53,618 bases of DNA from a virus (taxonomy: Duplodnaviria > Heunggongvirae > Uroviricota > Caudoviricetes). The stretch is from IMG/VR virus record IMGVR_UViG_2563366968_000008. One strand, given 5' to 3'. This document shows, in pieces, positions 6,323-19,695 of this stretch. Made by a program: the position numbers and the translations under genes. A model generated the notes under the pieces. That model did no database searches. It was not told where the DNA came from and saw nothing but the letters and a program-made list of their open reading frames with translations. The number at the start of each line of letters is the position of its first letter. Within the stretch, counting starts at the first letter, position 1.

Positions 6323-7039
6323 TCAATCACAAACAAATAATTTAGTGATCCATGCTTGTCCCTTAGCAGTGAATAACGCTTGTTCGTATCCATCAAAGGT
6401 TAATTTCATCTCTCCGTATCCTTTATCAATAAACCATTGACTAAATACACGACGACAACGAAGATCATAAACTCCGACAGATTCTAGTTTTCTGTTTAAT
6501 TTAATTGCAGACATTCCGAGCGCCTTTCCGACCTCCGAAGCCGTGCGGTGCATGTCGTTTTTGACAATCGCGTCACATACAGCCGCTTTTGGTGCAAGCT
6601 GTTTATTGACCAGCGCAAGCCGTTCTTTTTCCTCAGCAAGATCAGCAGCAAGGCGCAATGCTTCGCTTAATGTTTGAGGAATTGCAGGAGTGTTTTGCTG
6701 TACACGTTTTTCGAGTTCAAACCATCGATCGATTACCGCTGTTCTCCTTAGTATATCGTAACCAGTGATTAAGATTTCTGTGTGCCTTCTATCAAGTAGG
6801 TATTCCCAGCCGTTCGGGTTGTTTTTATCATATTGGTGGCACGTAACTGATTGATTTGTAACGTAACCCAAATTTGGGTTACGGATATAATCATCAGGTT
6901 TACCGCCGTACAATTCAGAAAGTATCACGCGAACATCACGGCAAACATGGTCATGACGCTTTCCTGTCAATTCCGCAATCTCACGCGATGACATTGTTAA
7001 TACTTCATTCGCGCAATTAAGCGCCATCAATTCAGACAT
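6323..7039 (-). CDS. Rha-family regulatory protein / antirepressor (KilAC-like C-terminus)
   Basis: N-terminal SSREIAELTGKRHDHVCRDVR typical of phage Rha proteins. Confidence 0.55.
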   Translation of the reverse strand: MSELMALNCANEVLTMSSREIAELTGKRHDHVCRDVRVILSELYGGKPDDYIRNPNLGYVTNQSVTCHQYDKNNPNGWEYLLDRRHTEILITGYDILRRTAVIDRWFELEKRVQQNTPAIPQTLSEALRLAADLAEEKERLALVNKQLAPKAAVCDAIVKNDMHRTASEVGKALGMSAIKLNRKLESVGVYDLRCRRVFSQWFIDKGYGEMKLTFDGYEQALFTAKGQAWITKLFVCD

Positions 7040-7404: not shown

Positions 7405-8457
7405 TCAAAGAACGCCAGCGCGCGTATCACGTAGCGTTTTTGGTTTAAGCAGAAAATCAAGTGTCGCAGTGAAGCCATTGCCAAAGTAAAAATCTGAAGC
7501 CGTGTTTTTGAACGTTTCGAAGTAGGCGACAAAGCCGTTAATGCTTTTGTCTTTCAGGTAGTCAGTGAACGCATAGATCTTGCGTTCAAGATCCCGATCC
7601 AGTTCGGCAGGTGGTAACAGGCCGTCAAACGTGCTGTTAAATGCTTCCACCACGTCGGCAGCGTTTACAGTAGCTGATAGCTTGCGCCATTGTTCAGCAT
7701 CAGCCAAATACCCATCAAACCTAGTTACCCGGCAAATGTTGATAGGCTTAGGTACTCCACCACGGCTACGCCATTGGGTTAAAGCCCACTCAATTACTAA
7801 CGTGATCTCATTCTCCGTATACGCTTTACGTGTTTTTGTTTCTGTCAGTAGTTCTACGAATGGCTTAGCATCACGACATTTGCATCCTGCCTTGTCGTTG
7901 TAGAAGGCAAGGCAACGCAATGCCGCTTCGTTTACGCCATCCTGATTGACCATTTTTTGTTCATTTTCGACAATACACGAAGTGTATATATCTTTTTCTC
8001 TTTCTTTTTCTACTTCTAATTCTAATTCATGACCCTTTCCTGACCCGGTCATGACCCTATCATGACCTTTTTGTGTTGGATTGATTAACTTTTCTAATTT
8101 TAATTGCTCCTTAGCTGTGTTTATGGCGGCCCTGTACGCGCTTTTAGAAGTCATTGATTGGTCAAGCCTTTTCAATAACTTTAAACAAGTTATGTGGCCT
8201 TGAGAACATTCAAACAAACCAATTTCGATGAAGTATTTCATCATTTCTTCTATACGTTTTTCAGTCGATCCGACGTTTCGCGCAATGATTCTCGCGTCAT
8301 GTCGTAGGTCAAAAGTCAGATTGTGCTGATCTACGTCATAAGTTATTAGTTCGAGGCAATACCAATAAAGCCCGTACCCTTCCAGGCCATAATCTAACAA
8401 AACGTTTTGAAGTTTTTCATCGCGGTTCGCATCGCTGTCATGCTTAAACCACTTCAT
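7405..8457 (-). CDS. Phage replication initiation / replisome-organizer-like protein
   Basis: 350 aa; N-terminus MKWFKHDSDANRDEKL...YGLEGYGLYWYCLELI resembles phage replisome organizer N-terminal domain; directly follows HTH gene. Confidence 0.5.
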   Translation of the reverse strand: MKWFKHDSDANRDEKLQNVLLDYGLEGYGLYWYCLELITYDVDQHNLTFDLRHDARIIARNVGSTEKRIEEMMKYFIEIGLFECSQGHITCLKLLKRLDQSMTSKSAYRAAINTAKEQLKLEKLINPTQKGHDRVMTGSGKGHELELEVEKEREKDIYTSCIVENEQKMVNQDGVNEAALRCLAFYNDKAGCKCRDAKPFVELLTETKTRKAYTENEITLVIEWALTQWRSRGGVPKPINICRVTRFDGYLADAEQWRKLSATVNAADVVEAFNSTFDGLLPPAELDRDLERKIYAFTDYLKDKSINGFVAYFETFKNTASDFYFGNGFTATLDFLLKPKTLRDTRAGVL

Positions 8458-8460
8458 AGA

Positions 8461-8718
8461 TCATCCCTCCGGCAACATCACTACATAGACATCACTGAAT
8501 GCATCAAGACGACAAACAAATCCTTTATCCATTAACGCGGCGAAGGCATCATGTACCGTATGAACAGGAAGTTCACACATTGCGGCTACTTCTTTGCGTG
8601 ATGCATCATGTACCCGTCCTTTGTTATCTGCCTTTTCAGCCAGAGCCATTAAGACAAGTTTTTGAATCGGGCTATTAAGTTTTACGTTCCATGCTTTACT
8701 AATCATGTTTATACTCAT
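8461..8718 (-). CDS. Small HTH/winged-helix DNA-binding protein, first gene of leftward operon (ORF track 8461..8796; ATG 8718 preferred)
   Basis: ATG 8718 has GGAG SD 8 nt upstream; KLVLMALAEKADNKGRVHDASRKEVAAMCELPVHTV HTH-like segment. Confidence 0.45.
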   Translation of the reverse strand: MSINMISKAWNVKLNSPIQKLVLMALAEKADNKGRVHDASRKEVAAMCELPVHTVHDAFAALMDKGFVCRLDAFSDVYVVMLPEG

Positions 8719-8932
8719 CGCATTTTCTCCTATGGTTAGAGTGAACGCGCGGGCGGGCATCCCATTAGCATTAGATAGCAGTGACTGACCGCTCAACAGA
8801 TCCCGCCGTTGCGTGATATTTGTTTTTCGCTTCGCAGCGACACCGGATTTTTAAAGAGCATAAGGTAAGTGCCTTTTTGTGCCTTCCGTTATCTTTTTCC
8901 TTGTGTCTTTGCAAGTATGGCCTTACCTTGTC

Positions 8933-8993
8933 TGCAAGTTTACAAAATGGAATTTTAAGATCAAGGCTTAAAATACACGTTTTGTGACTTGCA
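8933..8993. promoter_or_regulatory. Divergent operator/promoter region with imperfect inverted repeat (TGCAAGTTTACAAAATG ... CGTTTTGTGACTTGCA)
   Basis: Arms at 8933-8949 and 8978-8993 between the divergent leftward gene and the repressor gene. Confidence 0.4.
8938..8950 (+). repeat. 13-mer GTTTACAAAATGG copy 2
   Basis: Exact copy in divergent regulatory region. Confidence 0.8.
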
Positions 8994-9023: not shown

Positions 9024-9671
9024 ATGAAAACAAAATGGTATAACTTAGCAAAGCAGCTCATGCGGGCGCAGGGCATGAGCCAGGATTCGCTCGCGGATCG
9101 TATGGGGATAACTAAAGGCGGCCTGTCACACTGGCTGAACGGTCGCCGAGAGCCAAATCTTGAAGATATTGCGCGGATTATGCGCGAGCTTGGTCGTCGG
9201 CAGTTTACTGTTACACATGATGGCATGGTCATTGATGATTCTGTTTCTAATACACTTCAGGCCGTGCCGCCGCGTGATTTAGGTAGTTACCCGGTTATTG
9301 ACTGGAAGGACACAGTAAACAATATGGATGACGCAAGGCGTTCAGCATTACGACACGTTACGACTAGCGTTATTTGTTCAGATGACAGTTACTGGCTGGT
9401 TGCCAAAGGTGAATCAATGAACGCGCCGCAGGGGTTGAGCATCCCGGCGGGGACGATGATACTTGTGGACCCGCACGCGCCAGCTATTGACGGCAAACTG
9501 GTTATAGCCCAGCTTGAGGAAGGGCAGATACCGACGTTTAAACAGTTGATTATTGATGGAGGTCAAAGGCTTTTACGTTCGCTCAATCCGCTGTATCCGC
9601 CAATCCCTATGAATCCAGAATCAAAAATTATAGGCGTGGTGGTTGATGCGAAGATCGTAAACCTGCCATAA
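9024..9671 (+). CDS. CI/LexA-like repressor (HTH_XRE + S24 peptidase domain)
   Basis: N-terminal HTH (QDSLADRMGITKGGLSHWLNGRR), C-terminal S24 peptidase-like domain with GESM motif. Confidence 0.85.
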   Translation: MKTKWYNLAKQLMRAQGMSQDSLADRMGITKGGLSHWLNGRREPNLEDIARIMRELGRRQFTVTHDGMVIDDSVSNTLQAVPPRDLGSYPVIDWKDTVNNMDDARRSALRHVTTSVICSDDSYWLVAKGESMNAPQGLSIPAGTMILVDPHAPAIDGKLVIAQLEEGQIPTFKQLIIDGGQRLLRSLNPLYPPIPMNPESKIIGVVVDAKIVNLP

Positions 9672-9676
9672 ACATT

Positions 9677-9701
9677 AGCCGCCGAATGGCGGCTTTTCTT
9701 T
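9677..9701 (+). terminator. Intrinsic terminator after repressor gene
   Basis: Hairpin AGCCGCC-GAAT-GGCGGCT followed by TTTCTTT. Confidence 0.6.
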
Positions 9702-9794
9702 GCCTGGAAAACACCAAAACGTAAACAGAAAACGTTATTTATTATTTAAATATCAATGGCATATAAAATATTTTAAAAAAGTATACAAAATGGA

Positions 9795-9823
9795 TTGACT
9801 CGATGTTTTACGGGGCGTATATT
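9795..9823 (+). promoter_or_regulatory. Sigma70-like promoter (TTGACT, 17 bp spacer, TATATT), candidate rightward early promoter
   Basis: Near-consensus -35/-10 with 17-bp spacing; 13-mer-like motif GTATACAAAATGG immediately upstream. Confidence 0.5.
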
Positions 9824-10077
9824 GCGAGTCAAAGGAAGGGCGCAGGTAACAAAAGCAACTTCCTGGCACTTTAAAAATCAGGCTTAACACCTTGTCAACC
9901 GTGGAGTAACTCCCCGATGGGGGACCGAAAGCGGCACTGATAACAAGGCGCATGGGGTGTTTAAAGCGTTACATCCCCCACGAAACCGCACGCAAGGCGA
10001 CGAGTCAGCTTGCTTGGAGTGAGCAAGGTCACGCCGGGAACGGCGATGATTGCGGGATTAGTTGAAAGATGTTAAGC

Positions 10078-10115
10078 CGCTCATTAACAATCTGGTCAGC
10101 CGCTGGAAGTGCGGC
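10078..10115 (+). promoter_or_regulatory. nut-like site: boxA-like CGCTCATTAACAA plus boxB-like hairpin GCCGC-TGGAAGT-GCGGC
   Basis: boxA resembles GCTCTTTAACAA; 5-bp stem hairpin 8 nt downstream; lies in leader upstream of the N-like gene. Confidence 0.35.
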
Positions 10116-10171
10116 AATTAACGAAGATGATTTTTTATTAAGTATCATCAAGGATATACGGAGATCAGATT

Positions 10172-10462
10172 ATGAGCGTTACAATTATATATGGTAAATG
10201 TGATAGCAAAATGAATGCCAGGGAACGCAGAAGGATAAAAAGAGAAAACGAAAGAAAATCATCACCTGCAATCAATAAAACAGACAATGTGGATAAAGCT
10301 ATTCGATTTGCAAACGAGGAAAGATGCAAACCAAATAGCATTAAAGAACGTCGCAAAGGATCAGTAAAATGGTATACGGAAAATGAAAGCGGCAGCTACT
10401 ACCACGCAACGCAACCACGCCATTTAGGGGAAAAACCCCTGGATAAAGTCCGCTACCATTAA
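10172..10462 (+). CDS. N-like transcription antiterminator candidate (arginine-rich motif)
   Basis: 96 aa basic protein; NARERRRIKRENERK resembles the arginine-rich RNA-binding motif of lambdoid N proteins; first gene after the promoter/nut-like leader. Confidence 0.4.
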   Translation: MSVTIIYGKCDSKMNARERRRIKRENERKSSPAINKTDNVDKAIRFANEERCKPNSIKERRKGSVKWYTENESGSYYHATQPRHLGEKPLDKVRYH

Positions 10463-10492
10463 TACAAAATGTAAACATCCGGAGATGACATT

Positions 10493-10615
10493 ATGGTTAT
10501 TCAGGCGCTTCAATTCAAACTGGCAGTAGCGGAAATGCTTCACGATGCCGAAATGTGGAGCGCCGCGAATAAAGCCTTATACATAGTGTTAACAGCACGG
10601 GAGATTAAATGGTGA
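10493..10615 (+). CDS. Micro-ORF (40 aa) translationally coupled to erf-like gene
   Basis: ATG with GGAG SD at 8 nt; stop overlaps downstream start. Confidence 0.3.
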   Translation: MVIQALQFKLAVAEMLHDAEMWSAANKALYIVLTAREIKW

Positions 10616-14480: not shown

Positions 14481-14673
14481 ACATTACATGGAATGGAAAA
14501 TTCCAGAAGCAGCAACAAAGGCAGCGCCAGAAAATTTTTCTGGCGTTTATTTTTATATGGATGGCAAATGGTATTTCGGCAGCAGGCCGGATCACTACTA
14601 TCAAGAAATATGCAAGCCTCACGTATGGGATATTAAAGAGCGCGTGAAAGGCGGGGTAATTGAGGACGTTTAA
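14470..14673 (+). CDS. Hypothetical protein (67 aa)
   Basis: ATG start overlapping upstream stop. Confidence 0.4.
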   Translation: MKFKHYMEWKIPEAATKAAPENFSGVYFYMDGKWYFGSRPDHYYQEICKPHVWDIKERVKGGVIEDV

Positions 14674-14674
14674 A

Positions 14675-14911
14675 ATGCTTAAGAGCTTTTTTAACTGGTT
14701 GGGGGCGTGGCTTTTGGCTACGCTTTTTGTTTTCCTGGCGGCCCTGACTGTTATCGGTGTTATTATGCTGGGGGCTATGTTTATTACGTGGTCGCTTCCT
14801 GAATTTAACGACATTGGGAATATTCTTTTTGCAGCCCGCGCTTTATTGGCTGTTAGCGCATTCATTGGTTTTTGCTGGACTGCCGCGCCGGATTGGACTG
14901 ACACATGGTGA
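14675..14911 (+). CDS. Small membrane protein (two hydrophobic segments)
   Basis: ATG with GAGGA SD; in frame within ORF 14660..14911. Confidence 0.4.
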   Translation: MLKSFFNWLGAWLLATLFVFLAALTVIGVIMLGAMFITWSLPEFNDIGNILFAARALLAVSAFIGFCWTAAPDWTDTW

Positions 14912-17428: not shown

Positions 17429-17441
17429 GTTTACAAAATGG
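17429..17441 (+). repeat. 13-mer GTTTACAAAATGG copy 3
   Basis: Exact copy 2 bp after methyltransferase-like gene stop. Confidence 0.8.
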
Positions 17442-17587
17442 CGTCATTGTGTGATGTGGATCACATAATGGCGCTTTATTGTTTGTTCGCATGTATCCGT
17501 TTTGTATACTTCAAACAAACAAAATGCTCTTTAAAAATCCGGTAACGCTGAAATGCGTAAAAATCACCTGAAAAAGGAGAGAGCATT

Positions 17588-17764
17588 ATGTCTTTTGAGA
17601 ATTACCAATGGCATGACGACTATGAACGGGAAAGTGTCATGCGTGCAATGTGCAGTGTATGCAGCACGAAGAAGGGAGAATGTAACGAGTGCAACGAATG
17701 CGTAGATCGCTTGCTAAGGGCTGGACACGCCGAAAGGCTGAACGAAACAGAGAATCAAGAATAA
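17588..17764 (+). CDS. NinF-like small Cys-rich protein (58 aa), not in ORF track
   Basis: AAGGAG SD 8 nt upstream; YERESVMRAMCSVCS...CNECNEC pattern resembles lambda NinF. Confidence 0.45.
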   Translation: MSFENYQWHDDYERESVMRAMCSVCSTKKGECNECNECVDRLLRAGHAERLNETENQE

Positions 17765-17778
17765 TCGGGGTGGTTTTT

Positions 17779-18384
17779 ATGCAAAACCCTAAGAAACCAA
17801 TAAGACGCCGTTGCAAATGCTGCGGCGTTTTTTTTGAGCCTAAATATCACAACCAGACGTGGTGCAGTGAAGAATGTCTGGAAGAACTGAAATTTGATCA
17901 GCTATGCCGCGACCGTGAAAAGGCAATGAAGGCGATGGAACGGAAGAAACGCCGTGACAGCCAGCGCGAGGAACGAAACCGGAAGCGGAAACAGTTAAAT
18001 CCGCGCAGCTACTGGATCAAGCAAGTTCAAAATGTATTTAACGCCTATATCCGCGAACGTGACGCGCGGTTGCCGTGCATATCCTGCGGGACTTACTACG
18101 GTGAGCAATGCGGGTGGGATGCCGGACACTATAGGACGGTTGCCGCTGCCGGACACCTTCGCTTTAACGAAGATAATTGCCATAAACAATGTAGACACTG
18201 CAACCAGACGTTAGACGGCAACATCGGAGGTTATCGCCCGGCACTGATTAGAAAAATCGGCCTCGCCAGGGTGGTAGCACTGGAGAACAACAACGATACG
18301 CACAAATGGACGATCGCAGAATGTAAGGAGCTAATAAACATCTACCAGGCGAAATTGGACGCCTTAAGGAGAAAGGCAGCATGA
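17779..18384 (+). CDS. ninG: NinG/Rap-like recombination protein (ORF opens at 17689; ATG 17779 preferred)
   Basis: RRCKCCGVFFEP...CSEEC zinc-binding N-terminus and basic C-terminal region typical of NinG. Confidence 0.6.
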   Translation: MQNPKKPIRRRCKCCGVFFEPKYHNQTWCSEECLEELKFDQLCRDREKAMKAMERKKRRDSQREERNRKRKQLNPRSYWIKQVQNVFNAYIRERDARLPCISCGTYYGEQCGWDAGHYRTVAAAGHLRFNEDNCHKQCRHCNQTLDGNIGGYRPALIRKIGLARVVALENNNDTHKWTIAECKELINIYQAKLDALRRKAA

Positions 18385-18782
18385 ATGAATATACTTTTAG
18401 CCTGCCTTACCCGCCATCGAATAACCGCTATTACCGACATTCGCGTGGTTTTCACTATATCAGCAAGGTAGGGAAAGAATACCGTGAACGAGTAAGAGAC
18501 ATCATCGAATTATTAAATTTAAACATCAACATATCTTGCCGACTGGCAATCATCATTTATGCCGCACCGCCGGATAACAGGACCAGGGATCTCGATAATA
18601 TCCCAAAATGCCTATTTGACAGCCTTACATATTCCGAATTCTGGAAAGACGACGGTCAGATCGATTCTATAAAAATTGTTCGCTGCCGTAAGGTAAAAGG
18701 CGGGCGATTGTTTATCAAGGTGCGCGAACGCGGAGACCTGCTACCTGATATTAACGAATACGCAACTAATATGTGGTGGTAA
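18381..18782 (+). CDS. rusA: RusA-like Holliday junction resolvase
   Basis: LPYPPSNNRYYRH...RDLDNIPKCLFDSL...DDGQI motifs typical of RusA. Confidence 0.75.
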   Translation: MNEYTFSLPYPPSNNRYYRHSRGFHYISKVGKEYRERVRDIIELLNLNINISCRLAIIIYAAPPDNRTRDLDNIPKCLFDSLTYSEFWKDDGQIDSIKIVRCRKVKGGRLFIKVRERGDLLPDINEYATNMWW

Positions 18783-18966
18783 CAATGAAAAACGAAATTA
18801 AAGATCTGCAAATAGACATTCAGCGCGACGAGCGTGATTTAGCCACAGTTCGACAAATTCAGGCTTTTCACATGTGAGAATTACTTGCACTGAAAGAGTT
18901 TGAGAGAAAGCTGGTGCAATCAATTTCTGATCGTAAACGCCTTATTGCTCGTTACGGGGGCAAATA

Positions 18967-19695
18967 ATGAATTTAGAATCCATTCTAAAATTCCACTTTC
19001 CCAAATCACCGCGATTGTCAGACGAAAGCAGGGGAACATCACCTGATGCACTTAATACGACGGATGCGCTTACCGCCGCTGGTATGGCGCAATCGCGCGT
19101 AGCGCTTGGTTACAGCGCTTTTTTGGGGAAGATGGAACTATCGCAAACTGAAAAACACAGGGCCGTAGTTTTGCTTACAGAGCGTTTAAGAGCTATGGCA
19201 AAAGATTACGAATACGTTATGGAGTTGGACGATGAGCGACGCAATGATCTTATTATTCTTGTTGCCGTTTTCGCGTTTCGGGATTACTGCCAGAGTGCGG
19301 CGACCGAAAAGGTTTGCCCTAAATGCGGTGGAAACGGGCTTTTACCGCATCCATGCTGCGAATACACATCAACGGTTTGTTCGCGGTGCAACGGGAAAGG
19401 CTACGTTAAAAACCATTGCCAGCGGTGCAAAGGGCGCGGCGAGATACCGGATAAAGCAGCCAGTGAAGCAGCGGAAATGCCAGTTTTCAAAACGTGCCAG
19501 CATTGTGGCGGGCGCGGGTACTCGCGTTTCCCGGTAGATCTTGTCCGACAGGCGGTTAATCAGCTTGTTTTCCCGGTAAGCCGATCAACATGGTGGAAGA
19601 AATACAGGGTTTTCTATGAGGACGCCATAGCGGAGCTATTTAAAGAAGAAGCCCGCGCGGAAAGCGAAATTAAACGAGTGACACGGGGTGAATAA
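18967..19695 (+). CDS. Q-like late antiterminator candidate with DnaJ-type zinc finger
   Basis: Four CxxCxGxG repeats (CPKCGGNG, CSRCNGKG, CQRCKGRG, CQHCGGRG); position after ninG/rusA and before lysis genes matches lambdoid Q. Confidence 0.45.
   Translation: MNLESILKFHFPKSPRLSDESRGTSPDALNTTDALTAAGMAQSRVALGYSAFLGKMELSQTEKHRAVVLLTERLRAMAKDYEYVMELDDERRNDLIILVAVFAFRDYCQSAATEKVCPKCGGNGLLPHPCCEYTSTVCSRCNGKGYVKNHCQRCKGRGEIPDKAASEAAEMPVFKTCQHCGGRGYSRFPVDLVRQAVNQLVFPVSRSTWWKKYRVFYEDAIAELFKEEARAESEIKRVTRGE

What the first reader, a model, noticed from the sequence alone, without database searches (positions are those of the whole stretch)
9677..10462. Candidate N-type antitermination unit: strong promoter, boxA/boxB-like nut site and an arginine-rich small protein
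A near-consensus promoter (TTGACT-17-TATATT at 9795-9823) drives a roughly 340-nt structured leader holding a boxA-like element and a 5-bp-stem hairpin (10078-10115), followed by a 96-aa protein with an N-like arginine-rich motif (NARERRRIKRENERK). The repressor gene upstream is rightward and ends in a terminator, so the arrangement differs from lambda.
Basis: partly seen in the sequence, partly recalled or inferred. Interest (0 to 1): 0.45.

Follow-up and report, generated by a model that had tools for sequence, protein, structure and literature searches.

The report
Known phage N-type antitermination unit
This is the early promoter, nut site and N-like antiterminator gene (Gp17) of an mEp021-type temperate coliphage, a system already shown experimentally in a close relative; the only undescribed part is a very conserved 213-base folded RNA block inside the leader.

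Summary
The window is an mEpimmI-group (mEp021-like) coliphage. The 96-aa ORF is 93% identical to mEp021 Gp17, which the literature reports as an experimentally shown N-lambda-like antiterminator acting on nutL, nutR1 and nutR2. I located the other two: nutL at 8827-8860 (-) and nutR2 at 17525-17558 (+). The boxB stem covaries across sites and relatives. The claim that the layout differs from lambda is wrong: in lambda and P22 the repressor gene and N are also co-oriented, with the early promoter between them. The real difference is that NinG, RusA and Q lie on the N operon behind a third nut site. The N/nut unit is already known. The leader is long because about two-thirds of relatives carry a 213-nt GC-rich block (9866-10078) between promoter and nutR1. 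It starts with a second boxA-like sequence, is 5-12 times less variable than its flanks, has no Rfam match, and shows compensatory changes in one hairpin. Viable sister phages lack it. Its function is unknown.

The parts
9024..9671 (+). Prophage repressor gene (Rep021-like; HTH_3 + Peptidase_S24), co-oriented with the N-like gene
   Evidence: Pfam HTH_3 E=1.5e-12 and Peptidase_S24 E=5.7e-19. Annotated as repressor / cI repressor in mEp021 and mEp013.
9677..9702 (+). Intrinsic terminator after the repressor gene (corresponds to TERM_1 in mEp021)
   Evidence: 7-bp stem with 6 GC pairs plus T-run. Annotated as a terminator in mEp021, mEp010 and mEp013.
9779..9794 (.). 16-mer AAGTATACAAAATGGA abutting the -35; a 15/16 copy lies at 8936-8951 in the divergent promoter region. 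Candidate repressor operator (inference).
   Evidence: Direct repeat family D3. Conserved in relatives.
9795..9823 (+). Early promoter (pL-equivalent): TTGACT-17-TATATT, preceded by an A/T-rich stretch
   Evidence: 10/12 consensus match. Among 32 distinct intergenic sequences the -10 is invariant and the -35 is unchanged in all but L006.
9834..9863 (+). 5'-proximal hairpin of the long-form leader (GGAAG ... CTTCC)
   Evidence: Predicted. All 5 pairs are kept in 18 haplotypes, but none varies, so this is uninformative.
9866..9882 (+). Second boxA-like sequence (boxA') plus spacer, GCACTTTAAAAATCAGG: 15/17 identical to the nutL/nutR2 boxA+spacer and 13/17 to the nutR1 boxA+spacer
   Evidence: Best hit of the nut covariance model outside the three nut sites (11.5 bits, E=0.28), aligned to boxA+spacer with boxB missing. 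11-mer shared with nutL and nutR2.
9881..10078 (+). Structured RNA domain closed by the helix GGCTTAACA/TGTTAAGCC. Together with boxA' it forms the ~213-nt block present only in long-form leaders.
   Evidence: Absent from mEp013 and other short-form loci. z = -3.68. pi = 0.011 against 0.04-0.135 in the flanks. Hairpin 10009-10027 has 3 compensatory pairs in L067/L151. No Rfam match.
10078..10090 (+). boxA of nutR1 (CGCTCATTAACAA)
   Evidence: Only exact match to the boxA pattern in the window. Part of the 50.1-bit hit of the nut model.
10099..10115 (+). boxB of nutR1: 5-bp stem GCCGC/GCGGC with loop UGGAAGU
   Evidence: The stem covaries with boxB of other sites and relatives.
10126..10149 (+). 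Hairpin GAUGAU...AUCAUC between nutR1 and the ribosome-binding site (GGAG at 10160-10163)
   Evidence: Predicted. Sequence conserved.
10172..10462 (+). N-like antiterminator gene (Gp17 orthologue, 96 aa; arginine-rich motif at residues 15-29)
   Evidence: 93% identical to mEp021 Gp17. PHROG 271 E=1.3e-13. R17, R20 and R24 invariant, R19 and R21 nearly so.
8827..8860 (-). nutL: boxA TGCTCTTTAAAAA, spacer, boxB UCGCU-GCGA-AGCGA, at the head of the leftward (replication) operon
   Evidence: 51.5-bit hit of the nut model. Conserved at the same position in mEp021 and 60+ loci. Location matches the description in PMC11893012.
17525..17558 (+). nutR2: boxA TGCTCTTTAAAAA, spacer, boxB ACGC-UGAAAU-GCGU; 7.4 kb downstream of nutR1 and ahead of ninG, rusA and Q
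   Evidence: 55.9-bit hit of the nut model. Second + strand copy in loci L090 and L094.
17440..17475 (+). Terminator-like hairpin just upstream of nutR2. Further + strand candidates at 14523-14547, 14701-14727, 17809-17827 and 19101-19119 are presumed read-through targets.
   Evidence: Consensus scan only.
18967..19695 (+). Late antiterminator Q gene on the same rightward operon (presumed downstream target of Gp17-modified transcription)
   Evidence: Pfam Antiterm (Q) E=1.4e-30; NinG and RusA lie immediately upstream.

Best explanation
The region is the early rightward control unit of an mEpimmI-group (mEp021-like) temperate coliphage. A repressor-controlled sigma-70 promoter (9795-9823) transcribes a leader carrying nutR1 (boxA 10078-10090, boxB 10099-10115) and then the gene for Gp17, an N-type antiterminator. 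By analogy with lambda and P22 N, and as reported for mEp021, the arginine-rich N-terminus of Gp17 binds the boxB hairpin on the nascent RNA, and boxA recruits host NusB/NusE. The resulting complex with NusA/NusG makes RNA polymerase resistant to downstream terminators. It is loaded again at nutR2 ahead of ninG-rusA-Q, and at nutL for the leftward replication operon. Shown here: the sequence features, orthology to Gp17, the three nut sites and boxB covariation. Taken from the literature: antitermination activity, arginine dependence and Nus dependence. Inferred: the order of assembly. The extra 213 nt of leader is a separate structured RNA block that is not needed for the basic mechanism.
For: The region is 93.5-99.5% identical to mEp021, mEp010, mEp515 and MagusPhagus. 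Gp17 identity is 93%. PMC11893012 states that Gp17 carries out early antitermination in mEp021 via nutL, nutR1 and nutR2, with R17/19/20/24 conserved in 48 phages. PHROG 271 'N-like' matches at E=1.3e-13 over the full length. The N-terminal 46 columns align to P22 gp24 at 39% identity (hhalign E=0.003). The window holds exactly three full nut-type sites, each at the head of an operon segment. The boxB stem has 3 pairs with changes on both sides, and its covariation score is 0.324 against 0.110 in shuffles (0/500 reach it). Loops are of GNRA type (GAAA, GCGA, GGAA[G]). Gene order repressor-promoter-nut-N-kil-like-erf-ssb mirrors P22 c2-pL-nutL-24...kil-erf. Terminator-like sites and the Q gene lie downstream.
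Against: Pfam N_peptide scores below its cut-off (15.9 vs 27.9 bits). There is no NCBIfam or PDB sequence match. No significant similarity to lambda N itself was found (hhalign probability 2%). I could not read the primary experimental paper, so I could not check that the published nutR1 has exactly these coordinates. The nutR1 boxA of this window has an A in the conserved U-run (GCUCAUUAA), and its boxB loop (UGGAAGU) differs from the UGAAAU/UGCGAA loops of the other sites.
Confidence: 0.93

Rival explanations
1. The 213-nt structured block (9866-10078) is the main antitermination element, working as a cis-acting polymerase-modifying RNA like HK022 put, with Gp17/nutR1 secondary.
For: The block lies directly downstream of the early promoter, is highly structured (z=-3.68), and is the most conserved stretch of the region (pi 0.011). 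It sits behind a boxA-like sequence in the position normally held by boxB.
Against: Isolated, propagated phages of the same group (mEp013, mEp044, mEp554) and the most divergent relatives lack it. It occurs once per genome, with nothing similar at the leftward operon or at nutR2. It has no sequence similarity to any other phage in the phage collection. The literature attributes read-through to Gp17.
Confidence: 0.04
2. The long leader is protein-coding: it encodes small proteins such as the annotated 37-aa mEp021_16 (window 9952-10065), and the apparent RNA structure is incidental.
For: Annotators called small ORFs here in mEp021, mEp010 and MagusPhagus.
Against: The 16 variable sites fall 7:4:5 over codon positions 1:2:3, so there is no third-position bias. 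One haplotype loses the stop codon. The L067/L151 hairpin swap changes 5 of 10 residues non-conservatively while keeping all 7 base pairs. No good Shine-Dalgarno sequence precedes the ATG (reading). The ORF covers only half of the conserved block.
Confidence: 0.03
3. The arginine-rich protein is an unrelated basic nucleic-acid-binding protein, and the boxA/hairpin match is coincidental.
For: The Pfam N_peptide hit is below threshold. Arginine-rich stretches are common.
Against: Orthology to experimentally characterised Gp17. Full-length PHROG N-like match. Three conserved, covarying nut sites at operon heads.
Confidence: 0.01

Closest known systems
mEp021 Gp17 with nutL/nutR1/nutR2 (mEpimmI group; Valencia-Toxqui et al. 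2023 Arch Virol 168:92, as summarised in PMC11893012)
   Same: Same protein (93% identity), identical nutR1 boxB, same three-nut layout, same repressor/immunity region and gene order.
   Different: Seven amino-acid substitutions. This window is closest to phage MagusPhagus and to prophages in about 30 E. coli genomes. Nothing differs mechanistically.
Salmonella phage P22 gene 24 protein with nutL/nutR
   Same: N-terminal MTVxxYGK...NA(K/R)xRR motif and a central (V)xKAI motif. Order c2-pL-nutL-24...kil-erf. The inner boxB stem CGCU/AGCG of nutL is identical to that of P22 boxB GCGCUGACAAAGCGC.
   Different: Only profile-level similarity. boxB loops are 4-nt GNRA (GAAA/GCGA) closed by U-U or U-A, not the P22 pentaloop GACAA. 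There is a third nut site. Q lies on the N operon.
Phage lambda N with nutL/nutR and the N leader
   Same: Arginine-rich N-terminus, boxA-spacer-boxB sites, first gene after the early promoter next to and co-oriented with the repressor gene. Nus-factor dependence is reported for the group. From my own knowledge: lambda also has a long (~220 nt) structured N leader with an RNase III site controlling N translation.
   Different: No detectable sequence homology to lambda N. Here the structured part lies upstream of the nut site rather than between nut and the start codon, and it is optional. Replication genes are on the other operon, and ninG-rusA-Q follow N.
HK022 put RNAs (compared with the leader block only)
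   Same: Structured RNA immediately downstream of an early promoter.
   Different: From my own knowledge: put is about 70 nt with two stem-loops, occurs in both early operons and acts without a protein. This block is ~200 nt, single-copy, dispensable and shows no sequence similarity to other phages.

Membership tests
mEpimmI Gp17/nut early antitermination system (mEp021 type) | Gp17 orthologue with conserved arginines R17, R19, R20, R24 | tested here: met
   93% identity to mEp021 Gp17. R17/R19/R20/R21/R24 are present. They are invariant or nearly so in 16 family members.
mEpimmI Gp17/nut early antitermination system (mEp021 type) | Three nut sites: one upstream of the repressor gene (leftward), one upstream of gp17, one several kb downstream on the rightward operon | tested here: met
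   8827-8860 (-), 10078-10115 (+) and 17525-17558 (+). The same positions hold in mEp021 and other loci. Matches the description in PMC11893012.
mEpimmI Gp17/nut early antitermination system (mEp021 type) | Genome context of the group (immunity-I repressor, Erf/SSB module) | tested here: met
   Region 93-99.5% identical to mEp phages. Annotated neighbours match.
mEpimmI Gp17/nut early antitermination system (mEp021 type) | Gp17-dependent read-through of terminators; partial Nus dependence | not testable with these tools
   Reported for mEp021 in the literature. The primary paper is not held.
Lambda-type N antiterminators (Pfam PF25694 N_peptide / PHROG 271) | Profile match above the curated threshold | tested here: inconclusive
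   Pfam N_peptide 15.9 bits against a cut-off of 27.9, not met. PHROG 271 'N-like' E=1.3e-13 over residues 1-95, met. No NCBIfam match.
Lambda-type N antiterminators (Pfam PF25694 N_peptide / PHROG 271) | N-terminal arginine-rich motif paired with a boxA-spacer-boxB RNA site whose hairpin has a GNRA-type loop | tested here: met
   Motif at residues 15-29. boxB stem covaries. Loops are GAAA/GCGA tetraloops, or GGAAG in nutR1.
Lambda-type N antiterminators (Pfam PF25694 N_peptide / PHROG 271) | First gene behind the repressor-controlled early promoter, adjacent to and co-oriented with the repressor gene | tested here: met
   Same order as lambda and P22.
Lambda-type N antiterminators (Pfam PF25694 N_peptide / PHROG 271) | NusA- and RNA-polymerase-binding regions homologous to lambda N residues 34-47 and 73-107 | tested here: inconclusive
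   hhalign against lambda N aligns only RRKGSVKWYTE with ERKNQRTWYSK, probability 2%. No PDB sequence hit.
HK022 put-type antiterminator RNA (for the 9866-10078 block) | Related copies behind both early promoters; sequence or structure family membership | tested here: not met
   Single copy per genome. Nothing similar elsewhere in the window. No similarity to other phages. No Rfam family match.
RNA anti-CRISPR (solitary CRISPR-repeat mimic) (for the block) | Significant similarity to a host CRISPR repeat | tested here: not met
   Best local alignments to E. coli I-E and I-F repeats are no better than for shuffled sequence (p = 0.2-0.8). Repeat sequences were taken from memory.

The most novel reading that the evidence does not exclude
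The 213-nt block (9866-10078) is an undescribed functional phage leader RNA. It is a boxA-like sequence followed by a ~200-nt multi-helix domain in the place of boxB, inserted ahead of the canonical nutR1. It might tune Gp17 expression or loading of the antitermination complex, or it might be excised (for example by RNase III at its ~17-bp closing helix) into a stable early RNA with its own target. It is kept nearly invariant across backgrounds whose Gp17 proteins differ by up to ~28%.
Probability: 0.35. Interest if true: 0.55.

Novelty: already known. Interest (0 to 1): 0.25.

Why it matters
The N/nut unit shows that lambda-style processive antitermination operates in a common, non-lambdoid group of human-gut coliphages, but this has already been published for mEp021. 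What this analysis adds for the known system: the nut sites mapped in this genome, comparative (covariation) support for boxB with true GNRA tetraloops and a P22-like stem, and a correction of the comparison with the lambda map. The leader block could matter modestly. It is a natural presence/absence polymorphism of an ultra-conserved structured RNA placed exactly where the antitermination complex assembles. Isolated phages with it (mEp021, mEp010, mEp515) and without it (mEp013, mEp044, mEp554) already exist, so its role can be tested directly.

Tried and rejected
- Rfam: no family at gathering thresholds over the whole window, and only noise at E<10 on 9600-10500 and 9860-10085.
- tRNA/tmRNA: none in the window.
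- PDB profile search with the Gp17 family: no hit even at E<10. NCBIfam: none.
- tblastn of Gp17 against 50,697 phage records: only the seven mEp-type phages.
- GTDB species representatives: no Gp17 relative, and no copy of the block, only chance matches.
- IMG/VR and metagenome pattern scans for the block: only near-identical copies in the same gp17 leader context. No divergent homologues were obtained, so most helices cannot be tested by covariation.
- CRISPR-repeat mimic idea: rejected.
- Trans-antisense idea: no complementarity of 11 nt or more between the block and the rest of the phage apart from the boxA matches.
- Small-protein idea: rejected on the codon-position pattern and the hairpin swap.
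- GGA (CsrA-type) motif enrichment: about 9 GGA in the leader, close to the ~8 expected by composition. This was a hand estimate, not a computation.
- Primary paper (Arch Virol 168:92): not held.
- RNAalifold's pairing of boxA' with the 3' half of boxB: set aside, because the alignment is out of register there and two sequences break the pairing.

Full report
**1. Observation**

- The repressor gene (9024-9671, +; HTH_3 plus Peptidase_S24) ends in a GC-rich hairpin with a T-run at 9677-9694.
- TTGACT-17-TATATT at 9795-9823 is the best sigma-70 match in the neighbourhood (10/12). In the 32 distinct intergenic sequences the -10 is unchanged in all and the -35 in all but one (L006, CTGACT), although the surrounding intergenic DNA varies (pi 0.07).
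- From an inferred start near 9830 the leader runs 342 nt to the ATG at 10172. It folds better than every shuffle (z = -3.46).
- CGCTCATTAAC at 10078 is the only exact boxA-pattern match in the 53.6-kb window.
- GCCGC-TGGAAGT-GCGGC at 10099-10115 is a 5-bp-stem hairpin.
- The 96-aa ORF (10172-10462) carries NARERRRIKRENERK.

**2. Identity**

- The region is 99.5% identical to Escherichia phage MagusPhagus. It is 93.5-96.8% identical to mEp010, mEp515 and mEp021, and 100% identical to prophages in several E. coli genomes (35 of 5,426 complete genomes have a match).
- The ORF is 93% identical to mEp021_17.
- PMC11893012 describes this 'mEpimmI' group of Nus-dependent, non-lambdoid gut coliphages. 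Citing Valencia-Toxqui et al. 2023, it states that Gp17 is the N-lambda-like protein responsible for early antitermination in mEp021. It says Gp17 acts on three nut sites: nutL upstream of the repressor gene, nutR1 upstream of gp17, and nutR2 downstream of gp32. It also says R17, R19, R20 and R24 are conserved in all 48 genomes.
- The primary paper is not held. From my own recollection of its abstract, the evidence was nut-terminator-GFP reporters, arginine mutants and a gp17 deletion phage.

**3. Independent checks of the N assignment**

- PHROG 271 'anti-termination protein N-like' matches residues 1-95 at E = 1.3e-13.
- Pfam N_peptide matches only below threshold (15.9 vs 27.9 bits). NCBIfam and a PDB profile search give nothing.
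- A profile of 16 family members aligns its N-terminal 46 columns to P22 gp24 at 39% identity (hhalign E = 0.003 for the single comparison; BLASTP aligns MSVTIIYGK...NARERR with MTV-ITYGK...NAKTRR).
- Against lambda N only RRKGSVKWYTE / ERKNQRTWYSK aligns, which is not significant.
- The family is narrow. There are 31 clusters down to about 60% identity, none with a Pfam domain, and no member in GTDB species representatives.
- In short, Gp17 works like an N protein and is a distant N relative nearest the P22 type, but it would not be recognised by Pfam alone.

**4. The nut sites**

Besides nutR1 I located two more sites.
- nutL is on the minus strand at 8827-8860: TGCTCTTTAAAAA-TCCGGTG-UCGCU GCGA AGCGA.
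- nutR2 is at 17525-17558: TGCTCTTTAAAAA-TCCGGTA-ACGC UGAAAU GCGU.

More divergent relatives carry nutR1 variants with different stems and the same loop type:
- UGCAC-UGAAAU-GUGCA (L047)
- GCUAC-UGAAAU-GUAGC (L151/L067)
- GCACU-GAAA-AGUGC (L161)
- GCUCU-GAAA-AGAGC (L163)
- UCGC-UGAAAU-GCGA (L162)

On the alignment of nine sites (A4), three of the six stem pairs show changes on both sides. The covariation score is 0.324 against 0.110 in shuffles (0/500 reach it), and all register-shifted controls are lower.

A covariance model built from these sites finds exactly the three sites in the window at 50-56 bits, as expected since it was built from them. Nothing else scores above 11.5 bits. nutL is conserved at the same place in mEp021 and more than 60 fetched loci.

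boxB here is a short stem closed by U-U or U-A around a true GNRA tetraloop (GAAA, GCGA). The inner nutL stem CGCU/AGCG equals that of P22 boxB. The nutR1 of this window is the odd one out (UGGAAGU), and its boxA has an A in the U-run (GCUCAUUAA).

**5. Comparison with the lambda map**

In lambda, cI, rexA, rexB, OL/pL, nutL and N all lie on one strand in that order. P22 has c2, OL/pL, nutL, gene 24 ... kil, erf. The window is the mirror image: repressor, terminator, promoter, nut, N-like gene, a 40-aa Kil-like ORF, Erf, SSB.
- The real difference lies elsewhere. The rightward N operon continues through a Dam methylase to a terminator-like hairpin (17440-17475), then nutR2, NinG, RusA and the late antiterminator Q (18967-19695). 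The leftward operon behind nutL carries the replication genes. Q expression therefore depends on the N operon, which explains the need for a third nut site.

**6. Why the leader is long**

Relatives fall into two classes.
- In the long form, promoter to boxB is 309 nt. This includes the window, mEp021, mEp010, mEp515, MagusPhagus and about two-thirds of the loci.
- In the short form the distance is 96 nt. This includes mEp013, mEp044, mEp554, several IMG/VR contigs, and the most divergent relatives L047, L161 and L162.

The difference is a ~213-nt GC-rich block, 9866-10078. Its properties:
- It begins with GCACTTTAAAAATCAGG, which is 15/17 identical to the boxA+spacer of nutL/nutR2. This is the best hit of the nut model outside the three nut sites, aligned with boxB missing.
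- The remaining ~198 nt fold into a domain closed by GGCTTAACA/TGTTAAGCC, with two multi-helix junctions (z = -3.68). The same architecture is predicted for a divergent haplotype.
- The block ends exactly at the canonical boxA, so it is flanked by two boxA-like 17-mers (13/17 identical).
- Its nucleotide diversity among 32 haplotypes is 0.011. This compares with 0.059 for the repressor gene (0.135 at third codon positions), 0.070 for the terminator-promoter spacer and 0.052 for gp17 (0.100 at third positions).
- In L067/L151, whose Gp17 and boxB differ, hairpin 10009-10027 is rewritten (CUUGCUU...GAGCAAG to AUCACUU...GAGUGGU). Three pairs change on both sides and all seven stay paired.
- Several G-U pairs and G-U/G-C alternations point to the + strand as the functional RNA.
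- The annotated 37-aa ORF (9952-10065) is not under coding selection. Variable sites fall 7:4:5 over codon positions, one haplotype loses the stop codon, and the hairpin swap changes 5 of 10 residues.
- There is no Rfam match, no tRNA and no CRISPR-repeat similarity. There is no complementarity to other phage regions beyond the boxA matches.
- No copy was found outside this leader in E. coli genomes, the phage collection, IMG/VR, metagenomes or GTDB representatives.

Limits on these conclusions:
- Most helices never vary, so apart from one hairpin the fold is predicted, not proven.
- Low diversity could also reflect recent spread of the block by recombination.
- The short-form phages are isolated, propagated phages of the same immunity group, so the block is not required for growth or for Gp17 function.

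**7. Mechanism**

For the unit as a whole:
- The promoter is presumably repressor-controlled. A 16-mer, AAGT(A/T)TACAAAATGGA, abuts its -35 and recurs in the divergent promoter region. Its role as an operator is an inference.
- The promoter fires on induction or infection.
- Gp17 is made from the first cistron and binds boxB through its arginine-rich motif. Together with the Nus factors recruited at boxA, it converts RNA polymerase to a terminator-resistant form at nutR1, nutR2 and nutL. This opens the recombination/nin/Q genes and the replication genes.
- The steps after binding are inferred from lambda and P22 and from the published mEp021 experiments.

For the block, my best guess (low confidence) is a cis-acting leader domain that modulates Gp17 synthesis or complex loading. 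It may be processed at its long closing helix. A relic of recombination with another nut region is the main alternative.

**8. Verdict**

The finding is real and correctly interpreted, but it describes a system already characterised in a 93%-identical relative. Novelty is therefore 'already known' and interest is low. The one item I could not find described in the papers available to me is the polymorphic, ultra-conserved structured block in the leader.

Noticed in passing
window 9866-10078: A ~213-nt GC-rich structured block lies between the early promoter and nutR1. It is present in about two-thirds of relatives and absent from viable sister phages. It is 5-12 times less variable than its flanks, is flanked by two boxA-like 17-mers and has no Rfam match. 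It is not mentioned in the group paper I could read.
   Followed up: yes
window 17440-19695: The N-like operon continues to a terminator-like hairpin, nutR2, NinG, RusA and the late antiterminator Q. Replication genes sit on the opposite (nutL) operon. In lambda, nin and Q follow the replication genes on pR.
   Followed up: partly
window 8936-8951, 9779-9794 (also 9030-9045): A 16-mer AAGT(T/A)TACAAAATGGA is shared by the two divergent early promoter regions, and a related ACAAAATGG lies at the start of the repressor gene. A 27-nt imperfect inverted repeat spans 8933-8993. These are candidate operators for the Rep021-type repressor.
   Followed up: no
window 10088-10096 and 10163-10171: The boxA-boxB spacer AAUCUGGUC can pair over 9 bp with GAUCAGAUU, which lies between the Shine-Dalgarno sequence and the gp17 AUG (in the MFE fold). 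This could couple nut occupancy to Gp17 translation, as in lambda N autoregulation. The pairing is not conserved in the most divergent relatives.
   Followed up: partly
window 10493-10615: A 40-aa ORF directly after gp17 gives weak Kil hits (Pfam Lambda_Kil E=2e-4, below cut-off; PHROG 2055 E=1.4e-3). It sits where kil lies in P22 relative to erf.
   Followed up: no
L047 2430-2470; L151 3574-3610; L161 1727-1765; L162 1893-1930; L163 36-75: Divergent Gp17 variants (60-73% identity, e.g. arginine-rich motif NARKRRRMKR) have nutR1 boxB stems of different sequence but the same U-GAAA-U/A loop. This is a natural set for studying protein-RNA co-variation.
   Followed up: partly
window 8461-8715 (-) and 7405-8457 (-): The first leftward gene after nutL matches only the N-terminal part of replication-initiator (O-like) PHROGs. 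The next gene has a Lin1244_N domain. No obvious Cro-like gene lies between the promoter region and the replication genes.
   Followed up: no
window 10349-10381 (Gp17 residues 60-70): RRKGSVKWYTE aligns with ERKNQRTWYSK in the RNA-polymerase-binding C-terminal part of lambda N. The hhalign probability is only 2%, so this is a lead, not evidence.
   Followed up: partly
window 6323-7039 (-): A Rha / KilAC-domain antirepressor-like gene lies on the leftward operon.
   Followed up: no
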